A DNA stretch of 64,000 nt from an uncultured Thermoleophilia bacterium. Its GTDB lineage: Bacteria; Actinomycetota; Thermoleophilia; Miltoncostaeales; Miltoncostaeaceae. The stretch is taken from positions 6,857 to 70,856 of the forward strand of contig CAVSFF010000008.1 of NCBI GenBank assembly GCA_963727285.1. Direction: 5' to 3'. A program made the translations under genes and the position numbers. Positions 34,437 to 52,077 of this stretch are shown one piece after another. Positions within the stretch are counted from its first letter, which is position 1. The number at the start of each line of letters is the position of its first letter. The notes under the pieces were generated by a model. The model was not told the DNA's origin. It made no database searches and worked only from the letters and a program-made list of their open reading frames with translations.

Positions 34437-34455
34437 AATCCTGGCCTGCACGCCG

Positions 34456-37992: not shown

Positions 37993-38048
37993 TCTCGCAG
38001 CAGCCGCGCGCGGCGGTAGGGTCACGGCATCGACGCAAGGAGGCGGAC

Positions 38049-38624: not shown

Positions 38625-38683
38625 CCCGCGCGGCGTCGAGTCGGCGGGCAACGTCGGTGTAAATCGACCCGCCGGGGGCGGCG

Positions 38684-38881: not shown

Positions 38882-39057
38882 TCCCGCCTCGTCCGGCGCC
38901 GGCGGCCTGGGTCGGGCGGTGAGTGGCCTGGCCTGCCACGCGGCACTGCAGCCGCATCGTCCTCTACCCGCACGCTCCCGTGACGACGTCATGGCGGGAG
39001 CACCCGCAGCGACGCCCCGACACCGGCCGGCATCGGAGCGTCGCGGGTGTCGGCACG

Positions 39058-39282
39058 CTAGGCCGGGAACGGTTCCGGTGTACGGGCGCCCGGAACGAAC
39101 GCGCTCTCGGGCTCGAGCATCGCCCGGAGCTGTGCCCGGAATTCCGGCGAGTCGGTATGACCGTGGACGGCGACCGCGTGGCGGGCGGCGGCGTCGACGA
39201 CTTCGTCCTCTTCTCCGACGATCGTCAGCGTGCAGTGGCTGTCGCTCTCGAAGCGGCGACAGTCGGCCATCTTGCGAGCCAT
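39058..39282 (-). CDS. DUF1059 domain protein
   Basis: MARKMADCRRFESDSHCTLTIVGEEDEVVDAAARHAVAVHGHTDSPEFRAQLRAML matches the DUF1059 pattern (C..f....C...i.GeedEv......Ha...HGh). Confidence 0.7.
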   Translation of the reverse strand: MARKMADCRRFESDSHCTLTIVGEEDEVVDAAARHAVAVHGHTDSPEFRAQLRAMLEPESAFVPGARTPEPFPA

Positions 39283-39596
39283 TTGCGAACCCCCTGAGTT
39301 GATCCAATCGCGGCGCGACGTCGTGACGATGAATGTTCCGGATGTCCACCTCGATGGAGGCCCTGCTCGATCGGCACATCGTCCTGACGACGGTCGGCGC
39401 GTCGACGCCGCGCGCGCGGGCGTCAACCCTTGGACGGTGACGTGAATCAGCGTCGCACCGACATGTCTAGGAAATCGGATGCCTCCGGTCGTGCGTGCGG
39501 AATGTCCGGCGTGATGCCCCAAATATGTCGCGCAATGGGACGATTACGTAAGTTTACGCCGTCCCGTCGGGTGGGTCCGCAGGTGCGCGACCGGGG

Positions 39597-40745
39597 TCAT
39601 CCGGTGAGTGAAAGCACTCCCGACCACACGCCGGCGACCTGGCCGGGCGTCTGAGGCTGGCCGCCGAAATACCATGTGGCCGCGTACCAGTGCCACTGTC
39701 GGGCCTCGCGAAACATCAGCTGTTCACCGGCCGCCGACGTCCGTCCGTTGCCGGTGGACTCCCCGGCCTCGAGGATGCCCGGCCGCAGCAGGCCGTGGAT
39801 GTACGTGGCGGGGTTCGGGTTGCTGGCGGTGCCCTGTGTCGCATCGGCGTACGTCGAATAGGCGACGACCCGTCCGGTGGCCGGCAGCCGCCGCACGAGA
39901 TCCACCCAGTCAAGGCCCTGATTGATCTCGTCCGGGGACCGGGTCAGCAGCGCGCGCGCCGCGATCGCCGTGCTCCCCGGGCGTTGTCCCCATCCGGGCA
40001 ACAGCAGCTCGAGCTTGGTGCTGACCGGGAATGCTATGCCCGCCGTATGTTCGAGCCAGACCCCGTAGTTGGCCAAGGCGCCGTTGTAGGCCTGCAGGAA
40101 GGCGGTGGCCTGACGGGCCGTTCCGTGCCCCGGGCGCCAACCGCGAATCGCGATCGGCAGGGACGCCTGGGACGACGCGTCGTAGAACCAAAAGGCATTC
40201 GGCTTGGCACCGCGTGCGCCCGATGGGTACCGCAGCTCGCCGTCGGCGAGCCCGCCGAGCCGAACGGCCGCGAGCCCGCGCAGGTGCGTGCCGAGGAGGC
40301 GCACATAGGCCCCGAGCTGGGTGCGTACTCCCGCGTTGGTGACCCCGTTGGCGACGTTGTCGCCGGATCCCGCCGATCCCGTGAAAGCGCGGCCGTACTG
40401 GTCGACGAAGCGGGTCCCGCCACCGACGGCGAAGATCCACCGCGGCGGGTATTGGATGCCGGGATCGAGAACCGGCTGCATGCCGGCGGCGCGCGCGGCG
40501 TCGATCGCCAGCTGCAACCTCGTGATCGCCCGCGTCGAGAAGACACCCGGACCCGGCTCGATGGCGGCCCAGCTGGTCGGGATCACGACCTGGGAAAAGT
40601 GCGCCGAGGCCAGGACGTGGGTGTTTCCACGAAAGCCGAGCCCGTTCAGGGCCGGCGCACCGGAGGTCGACGTGGACCCGACGGCGGCGGAGGTCAGCGC
40701 GAGCGCCACCGCCGCACCGGTGAGAAGTTGTGTCCTGCGATTCAT
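39597..40745 (-). CDS. Secreted protein, possibly a TIM-barrel glycoside hydrolase
   Basis: Signal peptide MNRRTQLLTGAAVALALTSAAVG. WAAIEPGPGVFS...LQLAIDAARAAGMQPVLD...YPPRW resembles GH42/GH35-type N-termini. The family assignment is not secure. Confidence 0.5.
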   Translation of the reverse strand: MNRRTQLLTGAAVALALTSAAVGSTSTSGAPALNGLGFRGNTHVLASAHFSQVVIPTSWAAIEPGPGVFSTRAITRLQLAIDAARAAGMQPVLDPGIQYPPRWIFAVGGGTRFVDQYGRAFTGSAGSGDNVANGVTNAGVRTQLGAYVRLLGTHLRGLAAVRLGGLADGELRYPSGARGAKPNAFWFYDASSQASLPIAIRGWRPGHGTARQATAFLQAYNGALANYGVWLEHTAGIAFPVSTKLELLLPGWGQRPGSTAIAARALLTRSPDEINQGLDWVDLVRRLPATGRVVAYSTYADATQGTASNPNPATYIHGLLRPGILEAGESTGNGRTSAAGEQLMFREARQWHWYAATWYFGGQPQTPGQVAGVWSGVLSLTG

Positions 40746-40883
40746 CGCGTGCATTCGGTCGCCGGCCGGGGGGTGCACCGTCAGTGGTATCGACACTGCA
40801 GGCATCGACCGAGGTCCGCGGGGACTTGAACCGCGTGGCCGGCGCGGGATCGGTGGCACGGTGCGATCGGCCCATCGACCCGG

Positions 40884-41603
40884 TCAGCGGACGATCGCCG
40901 GCCCGGTTCCGGACTGACGGCCGCCGGTCCGTGCCGGTAGCGCCGAGGTGTCGGAGGCGTCCGCGCGGCCGGAGCCGGGGGAGGCGGGGTCGATCGGGGG
41001 TGCGATCCAGACCGAACCCGGGGACGCGCGCGGGGTGGCGAGGGCGACGGATCCCCGCCGGCCGTCCGGAAACGTACGGTCGGCGACGGTCACATGCCAC
41101 ACATCGTCGGCGACCGCGATCCGCGCACGTCCGTTGCGGAGAACCTCGGCGGCGTCGAGACGGTCGAACGGGAGCGTGAGCCCCCGTCCGTCGGCCTTCG
41201 CGACGGCCTCCTTTGCGGTCCACAGCCGTATGAGCGCGGCCGCGCGATCGGCGCCCGGCCGTGCCGCGAGTGCCGCGACCTCCGCCACCGACAGGATTGC
41301 GGTGCTCGACGGGATGGCGCCGCCGAACAGCTCAAGATCGATGCCCACCCGGCAGTCGGCACGCGCGATCAGGGCCCAGCGATCGGCCGAGGTCACGCTG
41401 ATGTCGTCATTGCCGGAGAGTTCCGGGCGCCCATGGTCCGTCCCACCGCAGACCGGGCAGCGGCGGGCGACGGTGGTCCCCGCTTGCTGGGCGACCTGCG
41501 CGAGCGCCGTCGCCCTGGCATGGCGCCGGTGGGCCACGATAGGGCCATCCAGGGCGGGGTTCGGCCGCCCGGCGTCGAGGTCGGCGGTCCAGACCCTGAC
41601 CAT
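40884..41603 (-). CDS. 4'-phosphopantetheinyl transferase (Sfp-type)
   Basis: GRPEL...ISVTSADRWALIARADCRVGIDLE...LWTAKEAVAKADGRGL. It starts 8 nt after the NRPS-like gene stop. Confidence 0.75.
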   Translation of the reverse strand: MVRVWTADLDAGRPNPALDGPIVAHRRHARATALAQVAQQAGTTVARRCPVCGGTDHGRPELSGNDDISVTSADRWALIARADCRVGIDLELFGGAIPSSTAILSVAEVAALAARPGADRAAALIRLWTAKEAVAKADGRGLTLPFDRLDAAEVLRNGRARIAVADDVWHVTVADRTFPDGRRGSVALATPRASPGSVWIAPPIDPASPGSGRADASDTSALPARTGGRQSGTGPAIVR

Positions 41604-41611
41604 GGGGCCGA

Positions 41612-44600
41612 TCACGTCCCGGCGGCGAGCGTTCGGCAGTTGTCGTCGAGCCATGCCGCAAGTTCGCCGGACCGCAGTTCCCAGAGGTCGAATCGCGGTT
41701 GCCGGGTTGCGGTCAGGAACGCATCCGCCTTGCGCTCGTAGGTGAGGCCGACGAGCGGCACGCCGCACGACCACGCAAATATCTGGGCGTGGAGCCGATG
41801 GGCGACGACGAGATCCATGTGACCGATCGCCGCTTTGATGACCGCAGGCGCATGATCCGGGCCGACGACATGGGTCCGATCGGCGTCGCCCGTTCTGGAG
41901 AGCACGTCATGCGACATCGAGACGTCGGAGGTCGTGGCCCCGAGGCCGTTGTCGCCGCGATCAGACATGCAGAACAAGACTGCGCTGCCGCCCGAGGTGC
42001 GATGCCACCAGTCGACGGCCTCCAGCGCGACCTCCACCTGATGGACGTCGCGGTCACGGTAGCCGCACGGCTTGAGGGAGATGCCGAGCAGCGGCACGTC
42101 GTCGCGGACGCCGGCGGCGGTCAGGACCGCGCGCCCGACGCCGGGGGGCGCCGGAGGAAGCTCGATCGCGGGATCGGGGACGATGCGCGCATGGGGTGCG
42201 GCGAGCACACTCGCGCTCTCCCCGTCGCGCACCGCGACCATCGTCGACCCGGCTGCGACCGCTTGGAGGGCCCGCTGGACGAACTTCGGGCTCGACGAGT
42301 AGGCGCCCGTGCCGAGGAACATGGTCTCCTTGCGCAGCAGCATCTGCGCCCCCCAAACGGCCGCGGGGAGAACCGCGGTGTTGAGCTTCATGCCGTTGCC
42401 GAACAGCCCACCGCCGCCGATCGCGATCACGTCACTGGCGAGCACTGCACGGATCACGCGCGGGCTTGTCAGGTCGATCGCCGGGACGCCGAACTCGCGC
42501 GCGATCCGTGCCGGGGCGCGGGAGACGACCGTGAGGTCGGCGTACGGGGCGACCAGGGCCACGATCGTGGTGAGGATGGCGTCATCGCCGAGGTTGCCGT
42601 TGGCATAGTTGCCGAACATCAGGATGCGCGGCCGGCCGCGTCCCTCGAGGGCACGCCGGAGCTCGGATGCGAGGTCGCTGTCTTCAAACGGGCGCCATGA
42701 GGATGCGCGCCGCTCGGGGCCACCGTCGGGGGTCCACGCGGCGACGAAGCGTGCGAGTTCCGCCGCGAGATGCGCAACGTGCGGCGCGTCGAAGACCGTG
42801 TTGTGGTCACCGGCGATCGGTCGGGCAACCAGCGGACCGTCGACGAGGCGGTCCCAACCCAGGGCCCGACGGCCGCGCGCCATCCGCAGGCCCTGACGCG
42901 TCCACAGCAGCGTCAGCGGGCCCGCGTAGCGCGCGGGGCGGTAGTCCTGGGTGGCGAGATTGGTCCGGCGCGTGGCGCGGGCAACCGCCGATGCCAGCGC
43001 CGGGTCCGTCGCCGTGGTCCGCGACGGGCGCAGGCGTCCGCGCACCACCGAGCGCGCCATTGCGAGACGGTCGCGCCCGCCCGCATCGCGGACGACCGGC
43101 CAGTTCATCACGGCCTCGGCCCAGAGATAGTCGGCGCGGGACCGCGTCGCGGGCGTGTCGATCACCAGCAGGCCGGCGATCGATTCCCCGGCGATCTCGA
43201 GGCGCTGGGCGACCTCGAGGGCGATCAGGCCGCCCGCCGAGTGCCCCCCGACGAGGTACGGACCGTGTGCCTGGATTCCGCGGATGCTGGCGGATCGCGC
43301 ATTCGGCGAGGTCACCGATCGACAGCGTCGGGACGTCCACGTCGGCGCCGGCGTCGTGGACGTCAACCGGGATCACCGGGCAATTCGGCGGCAGGTGCGG
43401 CAGCAGGCGTCGGTACCCCAGCGCCGAGCCGACGTAGGGGTTGATGAGAAACAGCGGGGTTCCCGGGCCGGAGGGCCGGGCGGGCCCGGGCCGACCGGCG
43501 CCCTGGCGATCGACGAGCGCGGCGAGGCCGCCGATGGTCGTGTCGTCGAGCGCCTGCCGGATCGGAAGGCGGCAGCAGAACGTGGTCTCCATGCGTGCCA
43601 GCAGACCGATCAGCGTGAGCGAGGTTCCCCCGAGGTCGTCGAGGAAGTCGTCCTGCGCCCGGATGGCGCCGCGCGTGCCGAGTACCTGGTGCGCGAGCGC
43701 CACGACGAGGAGTTCGGCTTCGCTGAGCGGGGCGTCGGCCGCGGCCGCCGCGCGGAAGGGCGCCGTCACCGGCTGCGCCGCAAGCGCAGTGAGCGCGGCG
43801 TCGTCATGCTTGCCGTGCCGGGTCAGCGGAATCGCATCGATCGTGATGAAGCGGGCGGGCACCAGGAAGTCCGGGAGCGTCCGCTTGAGCTCCGCGCGTG
43901 CGGCGGCGGCGTCGAACGCTCCGACCGGAACGACGAACGCCACCAGCGCGGCATCGACGCCGGCTCCGGCGACCCGGACGGTCGCCGTCTCGATCTCGTC
44001 GAGCTGCTCGAGGGCGGCCTCGACCTCCCCCGGCTCGATGCGAAAGCCGCGCACCTTGAGCTGGCGGTCAACGCGACCGCCGTAGTGGAACCGGCCGTCA
44101 ACGCCGACCGATCCGAGGTCGCCGGTGCGGTAGGCCTGTACGGGCCGCCCGTCGTCATCGGTGATCTCGACGAATCGTGCCCGCGTCAGGGCGCGGTCGC
44201 CGACGTAGCCCGTCGCGACCTGCGGCCCGAGGATGAGCAACTCCCCGGTCGTGCCCGCGCCGACGGGTTCGAGCCCGGCATCGACGACCCTCAGCCGCGT
44301 TCCCGGGACCGGCGTTCCGAGCGGGACGGGATCCGGAATCGGCAGGGCGACCTCGTAGGCACAGACGAACACCGTTGCTTCTGTCGGGCCGTAGGCGTTG
44401 ATCACGCGCAGCCCGCGATGTGCGCCGAGCAACCGGGCCGCAAGCGCCGGGGGCAGCACCTCGCCACCGACAACGAGCGTTGTCAGCGAGTCCGGGAGCT
44501 GACCGGACCTGAGCAATTCCCGGGCCACCGACGGCGTGGTCGCGCACATCGTGACACCGTCCCCGGCGGCCCCGAGCGCCGCCACGTCCGGGATGACGCG

Positions 44601-45296
44601 GACGCAGCCGCCGGAGGTCAGTGCGCCGAAGATCTCGATGATGTGCGGATCGAAGCTCAGCGAGGTGCTCGTGGCGGTGAGCGCGAAGTCCTCGGGTGCG
44701 CACCAGTCCGCGAGTGCCGCCGCGAAGGCGGCGAGGTTCGCACGGCTGACGCGGACCCCGTTGGGGACCCCGGTGGTCCCGGAGGTGAAGATGATGTAGG
44801 CGTCCGCTGCGGGATCCGCAGCCACGCCGGTGAGATCGCCGGCGGGCACCGCGTCGTCGGGAAGCGCGCCCTCGATGTGCGGTGCGGGCAGGTCCCGCCC
44901 GCATTCCCCCAGGCCGATGACCGCTGCGACATCGGCCGCCGTGCACATCGCCTCGCGCCGTGCGCGCGGCAGGTCGGGATCAAGCGGCACATACGCGCAG
45001 CCCGCAGCGAGTGTTCCCAGGATCGCGACAACGGCTTCGACGCACCGCGGCAGGCAGATGCCGACCGCCGCTCCCCGGGCGACGCCGGCGCCCCGAACGC
45101 GCGCGGCGAGGGCCATCGCCAGATTCCTCAACTCGCCGTAGGAGACCTGCCCGGTGTCGTCATCCAACGCCGGTGCGTCGGGATTGTTCGTGGCCCCGTG
45201 CCAGACGAGCTCGAGGACGTCGGGGCTCGTGAAGGGCGCCGGTCCGGACCTGGTCGCCGCCGATGAGGGGTCACTACGCGGGCGCTGATCGCTCAT
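41612..45296 (-). pseudogene. NRPS-like adenylation-PCP-thioesterase module fused to a polysaccharide pyruvyl-transferase domain; one frame break near 43290
   Basis: A-domain cores: IIFTSGTTGVPNGV (A3), SLSFDPHIIEIF (A4), NAYGPTEATV (A5), GELLILGPQVATGYVG (A6), YRTGDLG (A7), GRVDRQLKVRGFRIEPGEVE (A8), PLTRHGKHD (A10). PCP: DDLGGTSLTL. TE: PLFLINPYVGSALGY ... [shift] ... GPYLVGGHSAGGLIA ... GDHNTVF. The same frame then continues as ILMFGNYANGNLGDDAIL ... VAHRLHAQIFAWSCGVPLVGLTYERKADAF (PS_pyruv_trans-like). Confidence 0.8.
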
Positions 45297-47905
45297 TGCT
45301 GGGGTGCCTCCGAGAACGGTGCGGGGTGGGGAGTCGGTCCGCGATCCGGCTCCGTTCGCAGGCGGTCGGCGAACGGCAGCCCATGAAGCGTCGCGTCGTA
45401 CAGGTCGCCCTGGCGGGCCGCCAAGGCGTCCCATTCCAGCCCGGCGACCGCGCCGGGTCCGCAGCGGCCGAGCCGCCGCGCCAGTGCCTGGTCGAGCGCG
45501 ACGGAGCGAAGGGCCTGGGAGTAGCGGTCGAGGTCGAAGGCGGGCACCAGAACGCCCGCCCGCAGATCGACAACCCCGCGCAGGCACGGGATGTCGAACG
45601 CCACAACCGGCGTCGCGACCGACAGGGCCTCGGCGGCGACCATGCCGAAGGTCTCGTACCGGGACGGCATGGCCAGCAACGCGGCTCCGGCGAGCCATGC
45701 GAAGCGATCCTCGGGGGCGACACGCCCGACGAAATGCACGCGGTCCCCGACGCCCAGATCGGCGGCGAGCGCCTCGAGCACGTCACGGTCGGGCCCGTCG
45801 CCGCCGATGAGCACGTCGTGGTCGACGTCGCCGGCGATCGTCGCGTAGGAGGTCAGCAGCATGTCGATGCCCTTCTGCGCGATCTCGATCCGGCCGAGAT
45901 ACGCGATCCCGGTCCGGGGCTGATGCCGTGGGGTCATCCCGTGGGCATCGAGCCCGTTGGGGACGACGGCGACCTCGGCCCGTGGGTTGCGGGCGGCGAG
46001 CATCTGGCCGAATTCCTCCGAGACCGCGATGAGGCGCCGGTGGGAACGGACGCCGATCCGTTCGACCAGATGGAAGGGGACCCGGTATTCGTCGCGCTTC
46101 TGCTCGGCGAAGAGCCACTGGACGACGCCGATCGTCGGTCGATCCGTCAGCCACGGGACGGCGACCGACGAGAACGGGGCACCGAAGTCCTCGACCACCA
46201 GGTCGGACGGGTAGCGCCACAAGATGTAGGGGATCAGCGCGAAGTAGCTGAGGATCCCAAGACGGGAGCGGGTACGGAAACCCGCGTGCCTGTACCGCAC
46301 ACCGTCTTCGACCCGTGCGACGGCGCCCGGATACGCGGCGCAGACCACGGTGATCTCGTACCGGGCGGCGAGGCGACGGTTGATCGCGTGGGTCCGGACG
46401 GATCCGCCCCCGGATCCGGGTCGACGCGGGTCTTCGTACCCGAGATGCAGAACGCGCCGCGGCCTGCCCGGCATGTCGCGGTGACCGGCGCGGCGCAGGG
46501 CGTCGGCCACCGGGACGGCGGCGCACACCAGCACCGCGACGGCCCACGCCGGTCCCGAGCCCCGTGTCGCACACAGCGGGACGGCCAGGACGAGGCCGAC
46601 GGCGGCCGTCCGCACCACCGAGCGCAGGCATCCAGGCCAGATGCGGGCACAGTCCCTGAGCAGGCTGACCGCGATCAGAAGTGCGCCGGCGGCGACACCG
46701 GCGGCGAGTCCCCGCGGCCCGGCCAGCTGCAGGCCCGCAAGCTCCAGCGCGCCGCTGGCGACGATGCCGATGCCAAGTGTGATCGTCGTGCGGCGGATGC
46801 GCCCGGTCGCCTGAAAGTAGGTCGTCACCAGGTTGACGAGGCCAAGGGCGAGTCCGGCGGCCGCGGCCACCGGCAGGACCCTCGCGATGTTTCCGTAGCT
46901 CGCCGGGAACAGGTGGACGACGAGGACCGTCGGGGTGGTTGCGATCACCGCCGCGGTCGGGATCGCGATCCTCAGGTACAGACGCAGGCTGGCCCGGATG
47001 TCCGCCGGGCGGCTGCCGATCGCCGCGGCCACGCGGGGAAAGACGATGATCGACAGTGATGCGCCGACAAACAGCGCCGCCCTGCCGAGGACGTTTGCGG
47101 CCTGGTAGGTCGCCAACGTCGCGCTCGCTCCGAGCGCGAGACTCGCCACCACGACATCGAGGCTGGCGAGCACGGCCACGCCGCCCTGAATCGACAGCAG
47201 GCCGACCGTCGCGGACCAGAGCCGCCGGTCGAACACTGCGCCGCGGACCCGGCGCATGTCTGCGCGCATGCATGCGCCGCCGACCATGGCCACGATCAGG
47301 GCACCCGCGGCAAACCCTGCGATTGCGCCCTCGGCCCCGTTCCCGGCGAGGACCAGGACCGCGGCCGCGAGGATCTTCACCACCACCTCGGTGACCCGGA
47401 GGACCGCGATCAGCCGAAACCGCAATTGCCCCTGCAGGTAGCCGACCGTGGTCGACGCGGCGAAGATCACGATCACTGCGACGAATGCGGCGGTGAGGGT
47501 CGCCGGTGCCGCGTACCGCGCGGCGACCAGACAGGTGGCGATCGCCGCTCCGGTGGCCTGGATCAGGGTCGCCGCGACGGAAAAGCCCACGGCGCGCCGT
47601 CGGATCTCGGCGTCGTGCCCGGACGTGGCGACCTCGCGGGCCAAGACCCACGGCACCGAGGCGCCGGCCACCGTGCCGAAGATCAGAAGCAGCGCCGAGA
47701 TGGATCCGACCACCGCATACTGGGTCGGCGGAAGCAGCCAGATCATCAGCAGCGTGTAGGCGTAGTTGAGGGCCGCGACGGCGGCGGTGGCGGCGAGCAC
47801 CACCGCTTCGGCGCCACGTCGCGGCGTCCGGGCGGGTGCCACGGCGGCGGGTCCCGAGATCGACACGCCGCGGGGTTCCACGGACGCCGTGCCGACGACG
47901 CTCAC
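45293..47905 (-). CDS. Wzx-like (MOP superfamily) polysaccharide flippase fused to a GT4 glycosyltransferase
   Basis: The N-terminal 480 aa or so is polytopic with about 12-14 hydrophobic helices in flippase-like spacing. The C-terminal 380 aa or so is GT4: VLHLGYEDP...GGGSVRT, GDGPDR and SRYETFGMVAAEALSVATPVV. GTG start overlaps the upstream stop (GTGA) and the stop overlaps the NRPS-like start (ATGA). Confidence 0.7.
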   Translation of the reverse strand: MSVVGTASVEPRGVSISGPAAVAPARTPRRGAEAVVLAATAAVAALNYAYTLLMIWLLPPTQYAVVGSISALLLIFGTVAGASVPWVLAREVATSGHDAEIRRRAVGFSVAATLIQATGAAIATCLVAARYAAPATLTAAFVAVIVIFAASTTVGYLQGQLRFRLIAVLRVTEVVVKILAAAVLVLAGNGAEGAIAGFAAGALIVAMVGGACMRADMRRVRGAVFDRRLWSATVGLLSIQGGVAVLASLDVVVASLALGASATLATYQAANVLGRAALFVGASLSIIVFPRVAAAIGSRPADIRASLRLYLRIAIPTAAVIATTPTVLVVHLFPASYGNIARVLPVAAAAGLALGLVNLVTTYFQATGRIRRTTITLGIGIVASGALELAGLQLAGPRGLAAGVAAGALLIAVSLLRDCARIWPGCLRSVVRTAAVGLVLAVPLCATRGSGPAWAVAVLVCAAVPVADALRRAGHRDMPGRPRRVLHLGYEDPRRPGSGGGSVRTHAINRRLAARYEITVVCAAYPGAVARVEDGVRYRHAGFRTRSRLGILSYFALIPYILWRYPSDLVVEDFGAPFSSVAVPWLTDRPTIGVVQWLFAEQKRDEYRVPFHLVERIGVRSHRRLIAVSEEFGQMLAARNPRAEVAVVPNGLDAHGMTPRHQPRTGIAYLGRIEIAQKGIDMLLTSYATIAGDVDHDVLIGGDGPDRDVLEALAADLGVGDRVHFVGRVAPEDRFAWLAGAALLAMPSRYETFGMVAAEALSVATPVVAFDIPCLRGVVDLRAGVLVPAFDLDRYSQALRSVALDQALARRLGRCGPGAVAGLEWDALAARQGDLYDATLHGLPFADRLRTEPDRGPTPHPAPFSEAPQQ

Positions 47906-49539
47906 GGTGTGGGCGCCCCGGTCAGTGCGCTCACCTCGTACAGGCGCAGGCTTCCCTCACTCGGCCCGTCGGCCCGGAACATGAGTCGCCCGCGACGGTT
48001 GAGGGTCGCCAGGAACTCCTCCGAGGCCAGGCCGTACCCCTGATGGGTCAGCGTGGTTGCGACCAGCACGTACTGCACGTGGTGGGCCACGATCGCGGGC
48101 AGCGTGCTCCATTGGCCGATGACGCCGTGGCGGATGAGGAACTGGGAGGTGTAGTCGGTGACCGCAACTACCGAGTCCGGCGGAACGTGCGCAGACTCCC
48201 AGGCCAGCATCTGCTGGTACTCGTTGTCCGAGCGGGTATGGACCTGGAACCAGATCACCCCGTTGACCGCGAGCACCGCCACAATGCACGCCACCAGCGG
48301 CGATCGCCAGGTGGTCCCGCGATGCGCGGGCCGGCCTGAAAGCCAGGTTGTTGCGGCCGCGATCGCCGGTGCGAGCAGGATGTAGTACATCTGCTCTTCG
48401 ATCGATCCGAACAGCGTCGCGTAGACGAGATAGGCGGCCGCGACACCGGCCCAGACGGCGATCAGGATCGTCACGCGGTCCCGCGGGGTCCGGTCGGCGT
48501 CGGTGCGCCAGGGGCGAAGACGCACCACGAGCCCGACCGCGGCCAACGCACCGAGGCCCAGCAGAACGTACGTCGTGCCGTAGTCGGTCAGGTGGGCGAC
48601 GATGCGGGAGGTCAGCGACACGTGCACCGTCGGCGAATTGAATCCCGTCTCCTGCCGCACGCCGACCAGCCGCAGTGCGTCGTCGTACTTGGCGGTCCAC
48701 CACGCACCGAGCCCCGTCGAGGTCGCCACCGAGAGCACGATGATCAGATAACCGGCGAGCGTGATCCCGAGCACGGTCAATGCGTGGCGACGGGGGAGCA
48801 CCCATTCGGTGATCGCGAGCACGGCGAGGATCGCGATCACCACCATCCCGAACGTTTCTTTGCTGGTGATCGCCATCGTCCCGGCGACGCCGGCCAGGGC
48901 GACGCACCATCCGCGCGCCCGACCCGGTCCGAGGCACGTCGCCACCGCGATGAGCGCGCACATGCCGGCCACACCGGCCTGCGCGGGCGCCTCGAGCATG
49001 ACGCGGCTGTCGAACGTGATCGCGAACGGATCGGCAGCGGCGACAAGGGCCGCGGTGAACGCGATCGGACGGCGCGTCACCCGGTCCAGCAGCACGAACA
49101 GCGCGACTGGGATGAGGGCCCCGAAGGCGGCCGTCACGTGTCGGAGTTCAAAAATCGCCTGTTCGAGGCCGCCGTGGGCACCGAGGATCCAGAGTACGCC
49201 GCCGAAGATCATGAACGCCGACGGGGGGTGAATGTCGAATGCTCGTCCGTACAGGGTGACGCCTGCGCCGTGGGCGACGTTCATCGCGACCCGCGCGTAT
49301 GAGGTCTCGTCGATAAAGAGGTCGTAGGACCGAGTGATCGCGATCAGGCGCAGCGCAAGGGCGATCACGAACATGAGCGCCGCGCAGGCCGGCAGGCTGG
49401 TGAGCCAACCGACGAGCCGGGTACGTGCCGGGGCGACGGGCGCGAGGGCCGACGGGCCAATCGCCCCGGTGCGCCGGCGGGAAATGGCAACGCTGCGCCT
49501 GATGCGCCGGTCCGGCGCGTCGTGGGGGGTGGTGCTCAT
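47902..49539 (-). CDS. GT-C fold membrane glycosyltransferase (family 39/83-like, PMT/ArnT type)
   Basis: About 11-13 TM helices, the first-loop acidic motif YDLFIDETSYARVA, and a soluble C-terminal domain of about 130 aa. Confidence 0.6.
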   Translation of the reverse strand: MSTTPHDAPDRRIRRSVAISRRRTGAIGPSALAPVAPARTRLVGWLTSLPACAALMFVIALALRLIAITRSYDLFIDETSYARVAMNVAHGAGVTLYGRAFDIHPPSAFMIFGGVLWILGAHGGLEQAIFELRHVTAAFGALIPVALFVLLDRVTRRPIAFTAALVAAADPFAITFDSRVMLEAPAQAGVAGMCALIAVATCLGPGRARGWCVALAGVAGTMAITSKETFGMVVIAILAVLAITEWVLPRRHALTVLGITLAGYLIIVLSVATSTGLGAWWTAKYDDALRLVGVRQETGFNSPTVHVSLTSRIVAHLTDYGTTYVLLGLGALAAVGLVVRLRPWRTDADRTPRDRVTILIAVWAGVAAAYLVYATLFGSIEEQMYYILLAPAIAAATTWLSGRPAHRGTTWRSPLVACIVAVLAVNGVIWFQVHTRSDNEYQQMLAWESAHVPPDSVVAVTDYTSQFLIRHGVIGQWSTLPAIVAHHVQYVLVATTLTHQGYGLASEEFLATLNRRGRLMFRADGPSEGSLRLYEVSALTGAPTP

Positions 49540-49582
49540 TCGATGTCCGTTCCAGGGCGTCCGTGCCGCGGGGCGGGCGCCG

Positions 49583-51022
49583 TCAATCGAGTCCCGCCGA
49601 TGCGATCGGCGTGTGCTCGCGCGCTGCCTCGAGGCGGCCCGAGAGCCCACCGGGGACCATCAGGTCGGCGGGCCGGGCGACACTGCAGACGATGGCATCG
49701 TCGTATGCGATCGGCTCGGGAAGTCCGCTACGGATCAGCACGAGCCGTGCCGAGGCGGTGTCGGTTCCCGGCAGCACGAGTAGCCGTCCGGTGGCGTGGC
49801 CGATGACCTGGTCGGTCATGCGCAGCTTTGGGGACCACCATTCGGGGGCGACGCGGTCCGGGACATCGATGATCGTGACGGCGTCGTTCGCGGACCGCCG
49901 TTCGGAACTGTCGAGCGCAAGGCGCGCCTGTTCGGCCCGGATGGTGCGAAGGATCCGCTCGGCCATCTCCGGCCAGCTGAAGCAGCTCGCCCATGCCCGG
50001 GTGCGATTCGACCAGTCGGCGGCCTGGCTCGGGTCCATCAGGTCCTCAAGCGCGGTGACGGCGCCGTCGGCCAGTCGCGACTCGTCGTCGACCAGCCAGC
50101 CGGTCTCTCCGTCCCGTACCGAGTCCCGAAGTCCGGGGCGGTGGATCGCCAACACGGGGATGCCGAGTGCGTTCGCTTCGATCACCGACAGCCCCCAGCC
50201 CTCGGCCGCGGACGCGTTGATGCTCATCCACGCGCTGGCCAGGAGGCGATCGCGGTCGACCGCGGGGAGCGCGCCATGGAACGTGACGGCGTCGCCGAGC
50301 CCGAGCTCAACGGCGCGCGACTCGAGTGCCGGGCGTCGATTGCCCTCGCCGACGATATGGAGCTCGACGTCCGCAAAACGGCGTCGAAGGGCGGGCATGA
50401 CCTCGAGGATCAGCTCGGTGCGCTTATGGGCGGTGAGGCGTCCGACGCAGACGATGCGCGGATGCGCGGCGCGTGTGCGGTCCGTGGCCGGGGCCCGGTC
50501 CAGACCCGGGGGCGCGATCGTGATCGGGCCGCTCAGCTGCAGCGCCTGACGGATCTCCTGGCGGGTGGACGGGGAGACCGCGACGATTGCGCGGCGTCCG
50601 TAGGCCATCCGGCTGGCCGGCCCTTCCAGGAACACCCCCAACCGGGCCAGCGGCTTCGGCAGTCCGGCGGCCATCTGGTTCTGATGGACGTGGTGGAGCA
50701 ACAGCACGACGGGCGTGCGTCGGCCGACCGCGAGCGGCGTAAAGAACGGGATGCCGTTTTGGGAGTCGATGATTGCCTGGATGTTGCGGCGACGCATCAC
50801 GAGCCACACGAGCGCCCACCCGTAGACGGTGTAGCGGCTGCCGCGCCGGATGATCCGGAACCCGGATCGCGACTCCTCATGTGGCTTGCCCGCCACGGCG
50901 GCCGTCAGATACACCACGCGGTATCCCCATCGTGCGTAGCAGGCGGCAAGGTTCTCGCAGACGACCTCGGCACCGCCGGCATCCGGGTGATCGAGGTCGC
51001 GCCAGTTGGTGATGATGAGCAT
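49583..51022 (-). CDS. GT4 family glycosyltransferase with uncharacterised C-terminal extension of about 110 aa
   Basis: MLIITNWRDLDHPDAGGAEV..., VGRLTAHKR, and the E-x7-E region AAEGWGLSVIEANALGIPVLA. Confidence 0.75.
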   Translation of the reverse strand: MLIITNWRDLDHPDAGGAEVVCENLAACYARWGYRVVYLTAAVAGKPHEESRSGFRIIRRGSRYTVYGWALVWLVMRRRNIQAIIDSQNGIPFFTPLAVGRRTPVVLLLHHVHQNQMAAGLPKPLARLGVFLEGPASRMAYGRRAIVAVSPSTRQEIRQALQLSGPITIAPPGLDRAPATDRTRAAHPRIVCVGRLTAHKRTELILEVMPALRRRFADVELHIVGEGNRRPALESRAVELGLGDAVTFHGALPAVDRDRLLASAWMSINASAAEGWGLSVIEANALGIPVLAIHRPGLRDSVRDGETGWLVDDESRLADGAVTALEDLMDPSQAADWSNRTRAWASCFSWPEMAERILRTIRAEQARLALDSSERRSANDAVTIIDVPDRVAPEWWSPKLRMTDQVIGHATGRLLVLPGTDTASARLVLIRSGLPEPIAYDDAIVCSVARPADLMVPGGLSGRLEAAREHTPIASAGLD

Positions 51023-51096
51023 CCGCCGGGCGGGACTCTGCGGGGACGGCGCCTCGGCGCGGTGCGCAGCGGTCCGGGTGCGAAACGGCAGCCGGA

Positions 51097-52077
51097 TCAA
51101 TGCGCTGCCTCGGCCGGCTGCCACCCGTGGACGCTGCGCCGGACGCGGCGAAGGTCGAGAAACGACTGCACACCGTCTGAGACGCCCCGAAACGATGATC
51201 CATCCTGGTCGTGCCACGGCACCGGCATCTCGATCAATCGGACACCGTCGACCCGCATCGCGCGGGCAAGGATTTCGAGGTCGAAGCTGAAGCCGTCGAT
51301 CTGGGTGTCGCGGAAGACCCGTCGCGCCACGTCCGCCCGGAAGAACTTGAACCCGCACTGCGTGTCGGCGACGTTGCCGCGAAGGCGAGCGGATGCCGCG
51401 CGGAACGCGCCGCCGCCGACACGCCGCGCCAGCGGCTGGCGTCGTTCGTAACTGGCACCGGCGCAGCGCCGCGAGCCGACCACGACATCCCATCCGGACC
51501 CCAGCAGGCTCATCGCCCACGGGAGGGCATCGGCCGGGACAGGAAGGTCGGCGTCGCAATAACCGACGTACTCACCGGTCGCGTGGGCGACTCCGGATCG
51601 GACGGCCGCACCCTTGCCGCGGGCCGAGCAGCTGATCACCGTGGCGGTGACACCGCTGCCCGCAATTGCGACGTCGGCGGCGGAGGCCGTCCCATCGACG
51701 CTGTTGTTGTCGACGACGATCAGATGGACGGGGAGGTCTCGGACAGAGATCACCTCGGCGAGCTCGGTGAGGGTCCTGCCGATGCGGTGCTCTTCGTTGT
51801 ACGCCGGGATGATCAGATCGAGCCGTCCCGTGATGGCGTGCGTCGTCGTCGGGCCGCGGCCGTGGCTTGCACTGCGTCGTGTGGGGAAGTGCAGGAGTCC
51901 GGGAGTATCGGGGCCGTCGTGCCCGGAATCTTCAGTCGGGTGGGAGACATGACGACGGTCGGGACCGCTGTCGAAGGCAATGGGGGAGCTCATTCGCTTC
52001 TCCGAGTCGCAGGAGTCGATATGGGGTGTGAGCGGGGGTCGTGTGAGGTGCCGCGGCTCCGATCGGGCGGGGTTCAT
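51097..52077 (-). CDS. GT2 polyprenyl/dolichyl-phosphate glycosyltransferase-like enzyme
   Basis: [35 protein letters not shown] (DxD), QCGFKFF and GFSFDLEIL, the typical DPM/DPG-synthase-like pattern. The start could be 51993. Confidence 0.8.

What the first reader, a model, noticed from the sequence alone, without database searches (positions are those of the whole stretch)
39597..52077. 12.5-kb operon-like cluster joining lipid-linked glycan assembly with carrier-protein (NRPS-type) chemistry
Seven co-directional minus-strand genes are tightly packed. There is a GTGA overlap at 47902-47905, an ATGA overlap at 45293-45296 and an 8-nt gap at 41604-41611. In order they are:
- a GT2 polyprenyl-phosphate sugar synthase-like gene;
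- a GT4;
- a GT-C (PMT/ArnT-like) membrane transferase;
- a Wzx-like flippase fused to GT4;
- an A-PCP-TE module fused to a pyruvyl-transferase domain;
- an Sfp-type PPTase;
- a secreted hydrolase-like protein.

GT2 plus GT-C implies extracytoplasmic glycosylation from a polyprenyl-phosphate sugar. Wzx implies flipping of a lipid-linked oligosaccharide. The dedicated PPTase implies that the carrier domain is used.

My inference is an envelope glycopolymer or glycolipid that is aminoacyl- or acyl-esterified and possibly pyruvylated. The logic resembles Dlt D-alanylation (DltA/DltC), but the architecture is entirely different. I do not recognise this organisation as a characterised system.
Basis: partly seen in the sequence, partly recalled or inferred. 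Interest (0 to 1): 0.8.

Follow-up and report, generated by a model that had tools for sequence, protein, structure and literature searches.

The report
Envelope-glycan gene island with NRPS-type module
This is a real, rare and uncharacterised actinobacterial gene island that builds a lipid-linked surface sugar chain and, in one lineage, has gained a single amino-acid-activating (NRPS-type) module that probably attaches an amino acid to that sugar chain before export.

Summary
Seven co-directional minus-strand genes (39597-52077) have the stated overlaps, and every domain call was confirmed.

- **Conserved core.** GT2, GT4, a PMT-like GT-C and a flippase-GT4 fusion keep the same order in 28 GTDB species genomes plus metagenome loci. 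Flanking genes differ, and a secreted TIM-barrel glycosidase-like protein is nearly always nearby.
- **Accessory module.** A-PCP-TE directly follows the flippase-GT4 gene in about half of the loci, which form one clade of the GT-C tree. A PPTase was found in 12 of 14 loci with the module and in 0 of 9 without it.
- **Fusions tie the parts together.** Single proteins combine flippase-GT4-A-PCP-TE, flippase-GT4-pyruvyltransferase, flippase-GT4-GT-C, or TE-pyruvyltransferase.
- **Module looks functional.** The A domain scores as an amino-acid adenylation domain with a family-conserved specificity code (DPIAVGAVxK). The PCP serine and the TE Ser/Asp/His are conserved.
- **Frameshift.** The NRPS-like gene is broken by one base at 43286. 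Phosphoketolase and an ABC permease gene in the window are broken the same way, so an assembly error is the more likely cause.
- **No known match.** No curated family, defence-system model or paper describes this system.

Best reading: cytoplasmic aminoacylation and pyruvylation of a polyprenyl-linked glycan before flipping. The product chemistry is untested.

The parts
51097..52077 (-). GT2 glycosyltransferase, polyprenyl-phosphate sugar synthase-like. The catalytic domain starts at about residue 88; the true start codon is uncertain because homologues are 272-300 aa. No TM segment predicted.
   Evidence: Pfam PF00535, 85 bits. Best NCBIfam matches are Dol-P-hexose transferase, AglJ, PgfS, PpgS and ArnC, all far below their cutoffs. 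Nearest PDB sequences are Pyrococcus Dol-P-Man synthase 5MLZ (E 1.9e-11), ArnC and GtrB. No hydrophobic segment found.
49583..51025 (-). GT4a, a cytoplasmic retaining GT-B glycosyltransferase (480 aa from the ATG at 51025; the ORF stays open up to 51559).
   Evidence: Pfam PF13439 plus PF00534, 106.6 bits. Syntenic between GT2 and GT-C in nearly all loci.
47902..49650 (-). GT-C membrane glycosyltransferase, PMT-like (probable start at the ATG at 49542). It carries a conserved RSYD(I/L)FIDE motif and a C-terminal extracytoplasmic domain.
   Evidence: PMT_2, 30.4 bits against a cutoff of 26.1. Homologues hit PF02366 PMT. A family profile hits only PMT4 (9E61) in the PDB, E 2.4e-5. At least 8 TM segments. 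Invariant motifs. Small family: 215 representative clusters at E<=1e-30 out of 1.84 billion.
45293..47905 (-). MOP-superfamily (Wzx/MurJ-like) flippase domain (residues ~30-475, 14 helices) fused to GT4b (residues ~480-850).
   Evidence: Pfam. Of 32 family members, 24 hit Polysacc_synt (best E 1.7e-10), 5 hit MurJ and 2 hit Polysacc_synt_3. 14 hydrophobic segments or helices. In the fold search the GT4b domain matches MshA, BshA, PimA, PimB', WaaG and PglA.
43287..45296 (-). First reading frame of the NRPS-like gene: adenylation domain (~45200-43809), PCP (~43706-43512) and the N-terminal part of the TE domain.
   Evidence: AMP-binding 221.6 bits, AMP-binding_C, PP-binding 36.6 bits. TIGR01733 amino-acid adenylation domain, 344 bits against a cutoff of 317. 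Specificity code DPIAVGAVFK with D235 and K517. PCP motif LGGTSL conserved.
43285..43288 (-). Single-base frameshift inside the TE domain. Removing one base restores ...LAECAIRQ-IRGIQAHGPYLVGGHSAGG....
   Evidence: tblastn of P0004, P0002 and P0003 switches frame here with no homologue residue missing; sequence. The same break is in the public gene call P0001 (829 aa). Other broken genes in the window: xfp and an FtsX-type permease.
42773..43463 (-). Type-I thioesterase domain (spans the frameshift). GHSAGG serine, LLVIDTP aspartate, GDHNT histidine.
   Evidence: PF00975, 57 bits. Triad conserved in the family alignment. Nearest PDB sequences: NocB TE, AB3403 TE, EntF TE, Vlm2 TE, and weakly Pks13 TE.
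41612..42595 (-). CsaB-like polysaccharide pyruvyltransferase domain, fused here to the C-terminus of the TE.
   Evidence: PF04230, 69.4 bits. TIGR03609 CsaB, 118 bits against a cutoff of 213. It is a stand-alone gene in L007, L012, L020, L022, L024, L027 and L033, and is fused to the TE in P0003 and L011.
40884..41603 (-). Sfp-type 4'-phosphopantetheinyl transferase (239 aa).
   Evidence: PF01648, 50.5 bits. Found in 12 of 14 loci that have A-PCP-TE and in 0 of 9 loci that lack it.
39597..40745 (-). Secreted TIM-barrel glycoside-hydrolase-like protein with no Pfam family. Has a Tat-like signal (MNRRTQLL...); alternative starts at 40805 and 40859.
   Evidence: AlphaFold pLDDT 89.2. Foldseek matches beta-amylase GH14 (TMq 0.66), GH42, GH1 and GH5. 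Invariant E170 and E329 at the ends of two barrel strands. Weak GH1 sequence hits. Found near the core in most loci.

Best explanation
The region is a self-contained, horizontally mobile island for making a cell-envelope glycoconjugate on a polyprenyl-phosphate or other lipid carrier.

**Core (shown by homology and conservation).**
- A soluble DPM1/ArnC/GtrB-like GT2 makes a polyprenyl-phosphate sugar.
- Two cytoplasmic retaining GT4 enzymes build a short lipid-linked glycan.
- The MOP (Wzx/MurJ-type) domain fused to the second GT4 flips that glycan.
- A PMT-like GT-C uses the polyprenyl-phosphate sugar on the outer face of the membrane.
- A secreted clan-A-like TIM-barrel glycosidase trims or remodels the product.

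**Accessory decoration (inferred).**
- A CsaB-like pyruvyltransferase adds a pyruvate ketal to the lipid-linked intermediate.
- The A domain activates one alpha-amino acid and loads it on the PCP, which the adjacent Sfp-type PPTase has converted to the holo form.
- The Ser-Asp-His TE transfers the aminoacyl group to a hydroxyl or amino group of the same lipid-linked glycan, on the cytoplasmic face, before flipping.

The frameshift at 43286 is most likely an assembly error, so the module is probably intact in the organism.
For: **Conserved unit.** The order GT2-GT4a-GT-C-MOP/GT4b is identical in 28 GTDB genomes and in loci L001-L004 and the P0003 contig. Flanks are unrelated. No further gene family is co-conserved within +-10 kb.

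**Fusions seen as single proteins.**
- MOP-GT4-A-PCP-TE: P0009, P0014, P0133.
- GT4-A-PCP-TE: P0223.
- MOP-GT4-PyrT: P0221.
- MOP-GT4-PyrT-SIS: P0208.
- MOP-GT4-GT-C: P0230.
- A-PCP-TE-PyrT: the window, P0003 and L011.

A fusion to the C-terminus of a 14-helix MOP domain places the GT4, A, PCP and TE domains in the cytoplasm.

**Dedicated activation.** A PPTase was found in 12 of 14 loci with the module and 0 of 9 without it.

**The A domain is an amino-acid type.** TIGR01733 scores 344 bits against a cutoff of 317. D235 and K517 are retained, and the code DP[ILM]A[VM]GAVxK is conserved across the family.

**Catalytic residues are conserved.** The PCP serine and the TE triad are kept in the family alignment.

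**Individual enzyme resemblances.**
- GT2 is nearest to Dol-P-Man synthase, ArnC and GtrB.
- GT-C is nearest to PMT.
- CsaB is documented to pyruvylate a lipid-PP-linked disaccharide in the cytoplasm (PMC6801904).

**The frameshift looks like an artefact.**
- Both halves keep coding statistics (GC3 0.86) and catalytic motifs.
- xfp and an ABC permease gene are broken in the same way.
- All three breaks lie 3-7 nt from a GATC.
- Related long-read MAG loci show similar fragmentation.
Against: - No experiment or chemical data exist for any member.
- The sugar, the amino acid, the acceptor and the final polymer are unknown.
- The cluster has no initiating phosphoglycosyltransferase, Wzy polymerase or ligase, so the nature of the lipid-linked substrate is open. 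It could be a polyprenyl-P-oligosaccharide, a polyprenyl-PP-glycan primed by a housekeeping enzyme, or a glycolipid.
- TE-catalysed transfer to a sugar is assumed by analogy. Hydrolysis or self-condensation would be equally compatible with the domain content.
- About half of the loci work without the NRPS module.
- The frameshift could be real, in which case this genome makes only the undecorated glycan.
- The MOP assignment for the window protein itself is just below Pfam's threshold. It rests on family-wide hits.
Confidence: 0.55

Rival explanations
1. The island makes a small exported glycolipid or glyco-amino-acid natural product rather than a wall-anchored polymer. The TE would release the amino acid onto a lipid or sugar that the GT4 enzymes glycosylate, and the MOP domain would export the product.
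For: - One A-PCP-TE module plus a PPTase is a typical minimal NRPS-like biosynthetic unit.
- The cluster has no polymerase, ligase or chain-length regulator.
- The distribution is rare and patchy, like secondary-metabolite clusters.
Against: - The conserved core exists without any NRPS module in about half of the loci.
- The GT2 plus PMT-like GT-C pair is the signature of extracytoplasmic glycosylation from polyprenyl-P-sugars.
- The transporter domain matches Polysacc_synt and MurJ; no MatE match was returned.
- A secreted glycosidase-like protein is co-conserved, which fits a polymeric or surface glycan.
Confidence: 0.2
2. In this particular genome the NRPS-like gene is a genuine pseudogene. 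The island makes only the core glycan. Because the pyruvyltransferase domain lies downstream of the frameshift, the glycan would probably not be pyruvylated either.
For: - The frameshift is present in the sequence and in the public gene call P0001.
- A decayed remnant of the island exists elsewhere: L005, with the GT2-A-PCP-TE fusion P0127 next to a TrwC relaxase.
- At least one nested locus lacks the module: L010 inside the NRPS clade.
Against: - There is only one lesion in 3.7 kb.
- Downstream, 584 codons stay open with GC3 0.86 and intact catalytic motifs.
- xfp and an FtsX-type ABC permease gene in the same window carry the same kind of break.
- Each break lies 3-7 nt from a GATC, which is the pattern expected from basecalling errors.
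Confidence: 0.25
3. The island is a protein O-glycosylation system. The PMT-like GT-C would transfer a sugar from the GT2-made polyprenyl-P-sugar to secreted proteins, and the remaining genes would serve a separate glycan.
For: - The only PDB sequence match of the GT-C family is the protein O-mannosyltransferase PMT4, and homologues hit PF02366 PMT.
- Actinobacterial Pmt/Ppm1 is an established GT-C/GT2 pair (established knowledge; PMC8698208 listed).
Against: - The GT-C family is small and distinct. A phmmer search over 1.84 billion representatives returned only 498 clusters at E<=1e-3.
- It is fused to MOP-GT4 in P0230 and always sits between GT4a and MOP-GT4b, which argues for one shared pathway.
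Confidence: 0.12
4. The seven genes are neighbours by chance, and the NRPS-like gene is unrelated to the glycosyltransferases.
For: None beyond the general frequency of GT genes in high-GC genomes.
Against: Same order in more than 30 independent loci, translational-coupling overlaps, and single-polypeptide fusions across every junction.
Confidence: 0.01

Closest known systems
Dlt D-alanylation of teichoic acids (DltA/DltC/DltB/DltD)
   Same: An adenylation enzyme loads an amino acid on a phosphopantetheinyl carrier, and the aminoacyl group ends up as a decoration on an envelope glycopolymer. The A domain gives a partial DltA score (TIGR01734, 232 bits).
   Different: - The DltA score is far below the cutoff of 560.
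- The carrier is fused rather than a free DltC.
- There is no MBOAT (DltB) and no DltD.
- Transfer is proposed to be by a type-I TE on the cytoplasmic face, before flipping.
- The module is fused to a flippase-GT4 in some genomes.
Vibrio cholerae AlmEFG (glycine addition to lipid A)
   Same: Carrier-protein chemistry is used to aminoacylate a lipid-linked envelope glycoconjugate in the cytoplasm before export (own knowledge).
   Different: AlmG is an LpxL-type acyltransferase, not a TE. The substrate is lipid A. There is no GT2/GT-C/GT4 context. No sequence test was made here beyond the generic A-domain match.
Pks13 thioesterase (mycolate transfer to trehalose)
   Same: A type-I TE in Actinobacteria that hands a carrier-bound acyl group to a sugar hydroxyl instead of water (own knowledge). 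There is a weak sequence match (E about 3e-4).
   Different: Pks13 is a PKS and the acyl group is a mycolate. The TE here is closer to NRPS TEs (NocB, AB3403, EntF, Vlm2).
Three-component glycosylation systems (GtrA/GtrB/GtrC; CsbB/GtcA/YfhO; PpgS/Rv3779; ArnC/ArnT)
   Same: A GT2 polyprenyl-phosphate sugar synthase is paired with a GT-C that transfers the sugar outside the membrane. The GT2 is nearest to DPMS, ArnC and GtrB.
   Different: There is no GtrA-type small flippase. The island adds two GT4 enzymes, a MOP flippase, a pyruvyltransferase, an NRPS module and a glycosidase-like protein.
Mycobacterial/corynebacterial lipomannan-type assembly (PimA/PimB' GT4, Ppm1 GT2, MptA/MptB GT-C)
   Same: The same enzyme logic applies: cytoplasmic GT4 steps on a lipid, then flipping, then extracytoplasmic GT-C steps fed by polyprenyl-P-sugar. 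The GT4b model matches PimA and PimB'.
   Different: All genes sit in one compact island. The GT-C belongs to a different small family. No PI-related genes are present. The decoration modules are unknown in LM/LAM.
CsaB pyruvylation of secondary cell-wall polymers
   Same: A CsaB-like domain is present (TIGR03609, 118 bits). CsaB acts on a lipid-PP-linked disaccharide in the cytoplasm within a Wzx-type pathway (PMC6801904).
   Different: The score is below the equivalog cutoff of 213. No TagO, TagA or Wzy gene is in the island. SLH-domain partners were not looked for. The domain is fused to a TE here.
Haloferax Agl N-glycosylation (AglJ GT2 on Dol-P, soluble GTs, AglR Wzx-like flippase, AglS GT-C)
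   Same: Glycan assembly on a polyprenyl monophosphate primed by a DPM1-like GT2, extension in the cytoplasm, a Wzx-like flippase, and a final sugar added outside from Dol-P-sugar. There are weak AglJ and Agl16 matches.
   Different: All scores are far below cutoff. There is no STT3/AglB oligosaccharyltransferase. The host is bacterial.

Membership tests
Non-ribosomal peptide synthetase module | Amino-acid adenylation domain | tested here: met
   TIGR01733, 344 bits against a cutoff of 317. PF00501, 221.6 bits. D235 and K517 present.
Non-ribosomal peptide synthetase module | Carrier domain with the phosphopantetheine-attachment serine | tested here: met
   PF00550, 36.6 bits. The LGGTSL motif is invariant in the family.
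Non-ribosomal peptide synthetase module | Condensation domain (peptide-bond formation) | tested here: not met
   No PF00668 match in the window protein or in its closest relatives P0002-P0010. The generic NRPS hits further down the list do have it.
Non-ribosomal peptide synthetase module | Type-I thioesterase with a Ser-Asp-His triad | tested here: met
   PF00975, 57 bits. GHSAGG, IDTP and DHN motifs conserved.
Dlt D-alanylation system | DltA equivalog | tested here: not met
   TIGR01734, 232 bits against a cutoff of 559.85.
Dlt D-alanylation system | DltB (MBOAT) and DltD partners in the locus | tested here: not met
   None of the seven proteins gives such a Pfam or NCBIfam match. No further co-conserved gene family was found in the loci.
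Polyprenyl-phosphate sugar synthase / GT-C pair (GtrB-GtrC, ArnC-ArnT, Ppm1-Pmt type) | DPM1-like GT2 | tested here: inconclusive
   The best NCBIfam and PDB matches are all polyprenyl-P glycosyltransferases (Dol-P-hexose transferase, AglJ, PpgS, ArnC, DPMS 5MLZ, GtrB). Every equivalog score is far below its cutoff.
Polyprenyl-phosphate sugar synthase / GT-C pair (GtrB-GtrC, ArnC-ArnT, Ppm1-Pmt type) | GT-C membrane transferase with an acidic motif in the first outer loop | tested here: met
   PMT_2, 30.4 bits against a cutoff of 26.1. Homologues hit PF02366. Profile hit to PMT4. Invariant YD(I/L)FIDE motif after TM1.
Polyprenyl-phosphate sugar synthase / GT-C pair (GtrB-GtrC, ArnC-ArnT, Ppm1-Pmt type) | GtrA-type small flippase | tested here: not met
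   No such gene is present. The only transporter-like domain is the MOP domain.
Wzx/Wzy-dependent polysaccharide pathway | MOP/PST flippase | tested here: met
   The window protein scores 26.6 bits against a cutoff of 28.2. However, 24 of 32 family members hit Polysacc_synt (best E 1.7e-10), 5 hit MurJ and 2 hit Polysacc_synt_3. 14 helices are predicted.
Wzx/Wzy-dependent polysaccharide pathway | Initiating phosphoglycosyltransferase, Wzy polymerase and chain-length regulator in the locus | tested here: not met
   They are absent from the seven genes and from the co-conserved set. They could be encoded elsewhere in the genome, which cannot be tested here.
CsaB-type pyruvyltransferase | PS_pyruv_trans domain / CsaB equivalog | tested here: inconclusive
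   PF04230, 69.4 bits against a cutoff of 25.3: met. TIGR03609, 118 bits against a cutoff of 213: not met.
CsaB-type pyruvyltransferase | Coupling to SLH-domain surface proteins | not tested
   The genome beyond the window is unavailable, and no SLH scan was made.
Sfp-type PPTase | ACPS-superfamily domain in a protein of ~230 aa | tested here: met
   PF01648, 50.5 bits, in a 239-aa protein. NCBIfam gives only weak AcpT and pantethn_trn matches.
Glycoside hydrolase clan A (TIM barrel) | (beta/alpha)8 fold with glutamates at the ends of strands 4 and 7 | tested here: inconclusive
   The fold criterion is met: Foldseek probability 1.0 to GH14, GH42, GH1 and GH5, TMq up to 0.66. E170 and E329 are invariant at strand ends. 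There is no Pfam or CAZy family assignment, and activity is untested.
Anti-phage defence systems (raised by the GT4-conflict Pfam hit) | Match to any PADLOC model | tested here: not met
   0 families for all eight query proteins at E<=1e-5. The GT4-conflict scores are lower than the generic GT4 scores.

The most novel reading that the evidence does not exclude
A single NRPS-type module, in some genomes covalently fused to a flippase-glycosyltransferase, forms a membrane-bound assembly line. It would aminoacylate a polyprenyl-linked glycan in the cytoplasm just before export. This would be a Dlt-independent, TE-catalysed route for putting free amino groups on an envelope glycan. Together with the pyruvate ketal it would give a zwitterionic surface polymer or lipoglycan in Acidimicrobiia and related Actinomycetota.
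Probability: 0.4. Interest if true: 0.8.

Novelty: new variant of a known kind. Interest (0 to 1): 0.62.

Why it matters
Aminoacylation of envelope polymers controls surface charge, resistance to cationic peptides and autolysin activity. The known routes use dedicated membrane transferases: Dlt, AlmEFG and tRNA-dependent MprF.

A thioesterase-terminated NRPS module wired directly into a polyprenyl-phosphate glycan pathway would be a new enzymatic solution. It would also be a rare case of NRPS machinery acting on a primary cell-envelope structure.

The island defines two unannotated families: a small GT-C family and a TIM-barrel glycosidase-like family. It offers cultured entry points for the core pathway in Kineosporia, Nocardioides kribbensis, Streptomyces silvisoli and Kineococcus. 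The envelope of the mostly uncultured Acidimicrobiia is essentially unknown, so this is a concrete, testable hypothesis about it.

Tried and rejected
- **Programmed frameshift at 43286.** Rejected. There is no slippery heptamer or stop/hungry-codon context in CGCCAGCATCCGCGG, and other genes in the window are broken in the same way.
- **Defence-system reading prompted by the GT4-conflict Pfam hit.** Rejected. There is no PADLOC match.
- **Identifying the source organism.** The look-up of encoding contigs on the window's own gene products P0137 and P0001 returned nothing. The genome scan contains no identical locus; the nearest is an uncultured Actinomycetota MAG at 59-71% amino-acid identity.
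- **Structural confirmation of the MOP domain.** The Foldseek list and the PDB profile search for the full MOP-GT4b protein were filled by GT4 matches. I used family-wide Pfam hits instead.
- **Promoter and terminator scan.** No more sites than in shuffled sequence.
- **Rfam scan of the window.** Nothing found.
- **Five literature searches** combining adenylation/NRPS-like, flippase, pyruvyltransferase, GT-C, polyprenol, Acidimicrobiia and Actinobacteria terms. No paper describes this organisation.
- **Assigning the amino acid.** The code DPIAVGAVFK has no exact counterpart among the codes I can recall. The xGAVxK half resembles codes for large hydrophobic or aromatic residues. That comparison is from memory and is not a test.
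- **Extra cluster members among flanking ORFs** (38396-39379, 37491-38624, ppgK and others). None is conserved in related loci.

Full report
**1. Observation**

The window is about 70% G+C throughout. It is chromosomal: it carries pheS, pheT, argC, argJ, argB, argD, argG, dnaE, acs, a ROK-family glucokinase-like gene (ppgK-like), xfp and ackA.

On the minus strand between 39597 and 52077 the ORF list gives seven consecutive genes.
- The GT-C stop and the next gene's GTG start share GTGA at 47902-47905.
- That gene's stop and the NRPS-like ATG share ATGA at 45293-45296.
- The NRPS-like stop (41612-41614) is 8 nt from the PPTase start at 41603.

Every domain label was confirmed by Pfam:

| Gene | Pfam result |
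|---|---|
| GT2 | PF00535, 85 bits |
| GT4a | PF13439 plus PF00534 |
| GT-C | PMT_2, 30.4 bits (cutoff 26.1) |
| Flippase-GT4b | Polysacc_synt 26.6 bits (cutoff 28.2) plus GT4 |
| NRPS-like gene | AMP-binding 221.6, PP-binding 36.6, Thioesterase 57, PS_pyruv_trans 69.4 bits |
| PPTase | ACPS, 50.5 bits |
| Last gene | no match |

The NRPS-like gene is not one ORF. Frame A (from 45296) carries the A domain, the PCP and the first part of the TE. Frame B (41612-43366) carries the rest of the TE and the pyruvyltransferase domain. tblastn of three homologues switches frame at 43287/43288 without losing a residue. The lesion is therefore a single-base indel inside ...LAECAIRQ|IRGIQAHGPYLVGGHSAGG.... 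The same break is in the public gene call P0001 (829 aa, contig of 78,666 bp).

**2. Is the frameshift real?**

It cannot be decided from the sequence alone, but an artefact is more likely.
- It is the only lesion in 3.7 kb. The 584 downstream codons stay open with GC3 0.86, and the catalytic motifs are intact.
- The window has other broken genes. Phosphoketolase is split: ORF 54717-55661 holds XFP_N profile positions 3-246, and ORF 55411-57276 holds positions 240-363 plus XFP and XFP_C.
- An FtsX-type ABC permease is also broken. ORF 14445-15419 ends in the middle of the FtsX domain, which continues in another frame from 15416.
- All three breaks lie 3-7 nt from a GATC. Only 18% of window positions are within 7 nt of a GATC, so three out of three has p of about 0.006. 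That pattern suggests systematic basecalling errors.
- Related loci from long-read MAGs show similar fragmentation, for example L027.
- A programmed frameshift is unlikely because there is no slippery site.

**3. Comparative genomics**

*The NRPS-like family.* A search with the repaired 1227-aa protein found a tight family, distinct from generic C-A-T-TE synthetases:
- A-PCP-TE proteins of 816-911 aa at 44-56% identity (P0002, P0004-P0008, P0010).
- A 1201-aa A-PCP-TE-pyruvyltransferase (P0003; 45% identity over 96% of the query).
- 1726-aa proteins that combine Polysacc_synt, GT4, A, PCP and TE (P0009, P0014).

*Their contexts.* The contexts repeat the window's gene order:
- L001: GT2, GT4, PMT_2, MurJ/Polysacc_synt-GT4, A-PCP-TE, ACPS, unknown 439 aa.
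- The P0003 contig: the same order with the fused pyruvyltransferase.
- L002-L004: unknown 400 aa, GT2, GT4, PMT, one 1726-aa fusion protein, ACPS.

*Genome scan.* An alignment of the GT-C was scanned against one genome per GTDB species and gave 28 loci. Most are Acidimicrobiales MAGs. The rest include:
- Nocardioides kribbensis
- Kineosporia aurantiaca (two copies) and K. rhizophila
- Streptantibioticus silvisoli and Streptomyces silvisoli
- Marisediminicola senii
- Nakamurella and Jatrophihabitans MAGs

tblastn with the window's domains shows that GT2, GT4a, GT-C, MOP and GT4b keep the same order in essentially all loci. The unknown protein is nearby in most.

*Where the NRPS module occurs.* A-PCP-TE follows GT4b directly in L006, L007, L011, L012, L013, L014, L016, L020, L022, L026 and L027, plus L001 and L002. 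It is absent from nine loci that have enough downstream sequence to judge: L010, L017, L018, L019, L023, L025, L029, L031 and L033.

*PPTase.* A PPTase was found in 12 of 14 NRPS-bearing loci and in none of the nine NRPS-less ones.

*Pyruvyltransferase.* It is a separate gene upstream of GT2 (L007, L012, L020, L022, L027) or after GT4b (L024, L030, L033). It is fused to the TE only in the window, P0003 and L011.

*Boundaries.* The window's flanking genes have no homologues in any locus. No other gene family is co-conserved within +-10 kb. The island is therefore bounded by GT2 and the unknown protein.

*History of the module.* In a neighbour-joining tree of the GT-C, the NRPS-bearing loci fall in one clade together with the window. 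The cultured genera branch outside it. This suggests a single gain followed by occasional loss (L010).

*Family size.* The GT-C family is small. phmmer against 1.84 billion representative proteins finds 498 clusters at E<=1e-3 and 215 at E<=1e-30.

**4. Fusions**

The flippase-GT4b family has 45 clusters. Pfam scans confirmed these single-protein architectures:
- MOP-GT4-A-PCP-TE (P0009)
- GT4-A-PCP-TE (P0223)
- MOP-GT4-pyruvyltransferase (P0221, Kineococcus)
- MOP-GT4-pyruvyltransferase-SIS (P0208)
- MOP-GT4-PMT (P0230)
- MOP-PIG-L deacetylase (P0231)
- a partial-GT2-A-PCP-TE protein (P0127)

P0127 comes from a decayed island next to a TrwC relaxase (L005). Several long GT-C hits (1008-1366 aa) carry the GT-C at their C-terminus. 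Every junction of the island is therefore seen somewhere as one polypeptide. This is the strongest available evidence for a single pathway.

**5. The individual parts**

*GT2.* It has no predicted TM segment. Its best NCBIfam matches are Dol-P-hexose transferase, AglJ, PgfS, PpgS and ArnC. Its nearest PDB sequences are Pyrococcus Dol-P-Man synthase, ArnC and GtrB. All are polyprenyl-phosphate glycosyltransferases, but every score is below its equivalog cutoff.

*GT-C.* It has at least 8 TM segments and an invariant YD(I/L)FIDE motif after the first one. The family profile's only PDB hit is protein O-mannosyltransferase PMT4.

*MOP domain.* It has 14 helices. Of 32 family members, 24 hit Polysacc_synt, 5 hit MurJ and 2 hit Polysacc_synt_3.

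*GT4b.* The AlphaFold model (pLDDT 88) matches retaining GT-B enzymes that act on small or lipid acceptors: MshA, BshA, PimA, PimB', WaaG and PglA.

*A domain.*
- It passes the curated amino-acid adenylation model (TIGR01733, 344 bits, cutoff 317).
- It fails DltA (232 bits, cutoff 560).
- Mapping onto GrsA positions gives the code DPIAVGAVFK.
- The family code is DP[ILM][AGS][VMLC]G[AVLTCF]Vx-K, with Asp235 and Lys517 always present.
- This argues for one conserved alpha-amino acid substrate. Which one is not determined.

*PCP and TE.* The PCP LGGTSL motif and the TE GHSAGG, (I/L)D(T/S)P and (D/E/G)H(N/I) motifs are conserved. The TE is nearest in sequence to NocB, AB3403, EntF and Vlm2 TEs. 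It has a weak match to the Pks13 TE.

*Condensation domain.* None was detected in the window protein.

*Pyruvyltransferase.* It passes PF04230. It scores 118 bits on the CsaB model, whose cutoff is 213.

*Last protein.*
- It has a Tat-like signal (MNRRTQLL).
- It has about 50 homologue clusters, all unannotated. Some carry Big_2 or dockerin domains.
- Its confident AlphaFold model (pLDDT 89.2) is a (beta/alpha)8 barrel closest to GH14 beta-amylase (TMq 0.66), GH42, GH1 and GH5.
- Invariant glutamates sit at the ends of two barrel strands: E170 in an (N/G)ELRYP motif and E329 in GGESTG.

**6. Mechanism**

*Shown.* The genes form one conserved unit. The A-PCP-TE module is cytoplasmic and physically coupled to the flippase-GT4. 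It has its own PPTase. Its catalytic residues are conserved.

*Inferred.*
- GT4a and GT4b assemble a short lipid-linked glycan.
- The CsaB-like enzyme pyruvylates it. CsaB requires a lipid-PP-linked acceptor in the cytoplasm (PMC6801904).
- The TE transfers the PCP-bound aminoacyl group to the same intermediate.
- The MOP domain flips it.
- The GT-C adds sugar outside the membrane from the GT2-made polyprenyl-P-sugar.
- The secreted glycosidase-like protein trims or releases the product.

*Open.* The island has no initiating phosphoglycosyltransferase, polymerase or ligase. The carrier could therefore be polyprenyl-P, polyprenyl-PP primed by a housekeeping enzyme, or a glycolipid as in lipomannan synthesis. 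The acceptor could be a lipoglycan, a wall polymer or a protein.

**7. Comparison with known systems**

The island works like a combination of three known ideas:
- GT2/GT-C glycosylation, as in GtrB-GtrC, ArnC-ArnT, PpgS-Rv3779 and Ppm1-Pmt/Mpt.
- Wzx-type export with cytoplasmic pyruvylation, as for CsaB and secondary cell-wall polymers.
- Carrier-protein aminoacylation of envelope polymers, as in Dlt and AlmEFG.

It is not a member of any of them:
- The DltA equivalog test fails, and DltB and DltD are absent.
- There is no GtrA-type flippase.
- There is no PGT or Wzy.
- The CsaB equivalog cutoff is not met.
- There is no PADLOC match.

Five full-text literature searches found no description of this organisation. 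Named homologues in cultured strains are annotated only as "glycosyltransferase".

**8. Verdict**

- The NRPS and pyruvyl modules are lineage-specific accessories of a conserved glycan core.
- The TE-pyruvyltransferase fusion is found in only three loci (the window, P0003 and L011).
- The gene is frameshifted in this assembly, probably as an artefact.

I rate it a new variant of known kinds of envelope-glycan assembly and decoration, with interest 0.62. The product chemistry remains to be shown.

Noticed in passing
window 54717-57276 (+), break at about 55653-55656: The phosphoketolase gene (xfp) is split into two overlapping ORFs in different frames. XFP_N profile positions 3-246 are in 54717-55661. 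Positions 240-363 plus XFP and XFP_C are in 55411-57276. It looks like a one-base indel, 4-7 nt from a GATC.
   Followed up: yes
window 14445-16521 (+), break at about 15413-15416 and possibly another between 15559 and 15652: A MacB/FtsX-type ABC permease gene is interrupted. ORF 14445-15419 ends in mid FtsX domain (profile 2-59 of 120). The domain continues in another frame from 15416, and a further ORF starts at 15652.
   Followed up: partly
whole window: GATC occurs 679 times in 64 kb, or once per 94 nt. From base composition I estimate about 176 would be expected. The excess is probably due to codon usage. All three frameshifts found lie 3-7 nt from a GATC, which would fit methylation-related long-read basecalling errors.
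   Followed up: partly
window 34636-34716 (-): ARAGORN calls an 81-nt tRNA-Arg(TCG) inside the polysaccharide deacetylase ORF (34432-35412, + strand). The Rfam scan of the window found no tRNA at gathering threshold. It is probably a false positive.
   Followed up: partly
window 38625-39596: About 1 kb lies between a probable lipoprotein gene (C-terminal half of ORF 37491-38624, + strand) and the glycosidase-like gene. It has no convincing coding signal. The 327-aa minus-strand ORF 38396-39379 is Arg-rich and has no Pfam match or homologue in related loci.
   Followed up: partly
L005 (ena ERZ25039522 contig_12949), 9351-14209: This is a decayed copy of the island: partial GT2 joined to a GT4b remnant, then A-PCP-TE, a PPTase and a fragment of the glycosidase-like gene. 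Across an intervening SLT/NlpC_P60 hydrolase gene it neighbours a TrwC relaxase, which hints at transfer on a conjugative element. P0127 (1153 aa) is the corresponding GT2-A-PCP-TE fusion.
   Followed up: partly
L013 and L020 (MAG MFD04780.bin.2.99); L018 and L025 (Kineosporia aurantiaca): Two genomes carry two copies of the island on different contigs.
   Followed up: no
proteins P0208-P0210 and P0231: Other decoration domains are fused to the same flippase(-GT4) scaffold. One is a pyruvyltransferase followed by a SIS (sugar-phosphate isomerase) domain. Another is a PIG-L/LmbE-type GlcNAc de-N-acetylase. The latter suggests that some variants expose a free amino sugar.
   Followed up: partly
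window 53721-54450 (-): The 654-aa minus-strand ORF 53721-55685 overlaps xfp antisense. Only its C-terminal part, with an IclR-type HTH at residues 424-472, looks real. It is probably a short IclR-family regulator gene between ppgK and xfp.
   Followed up: no
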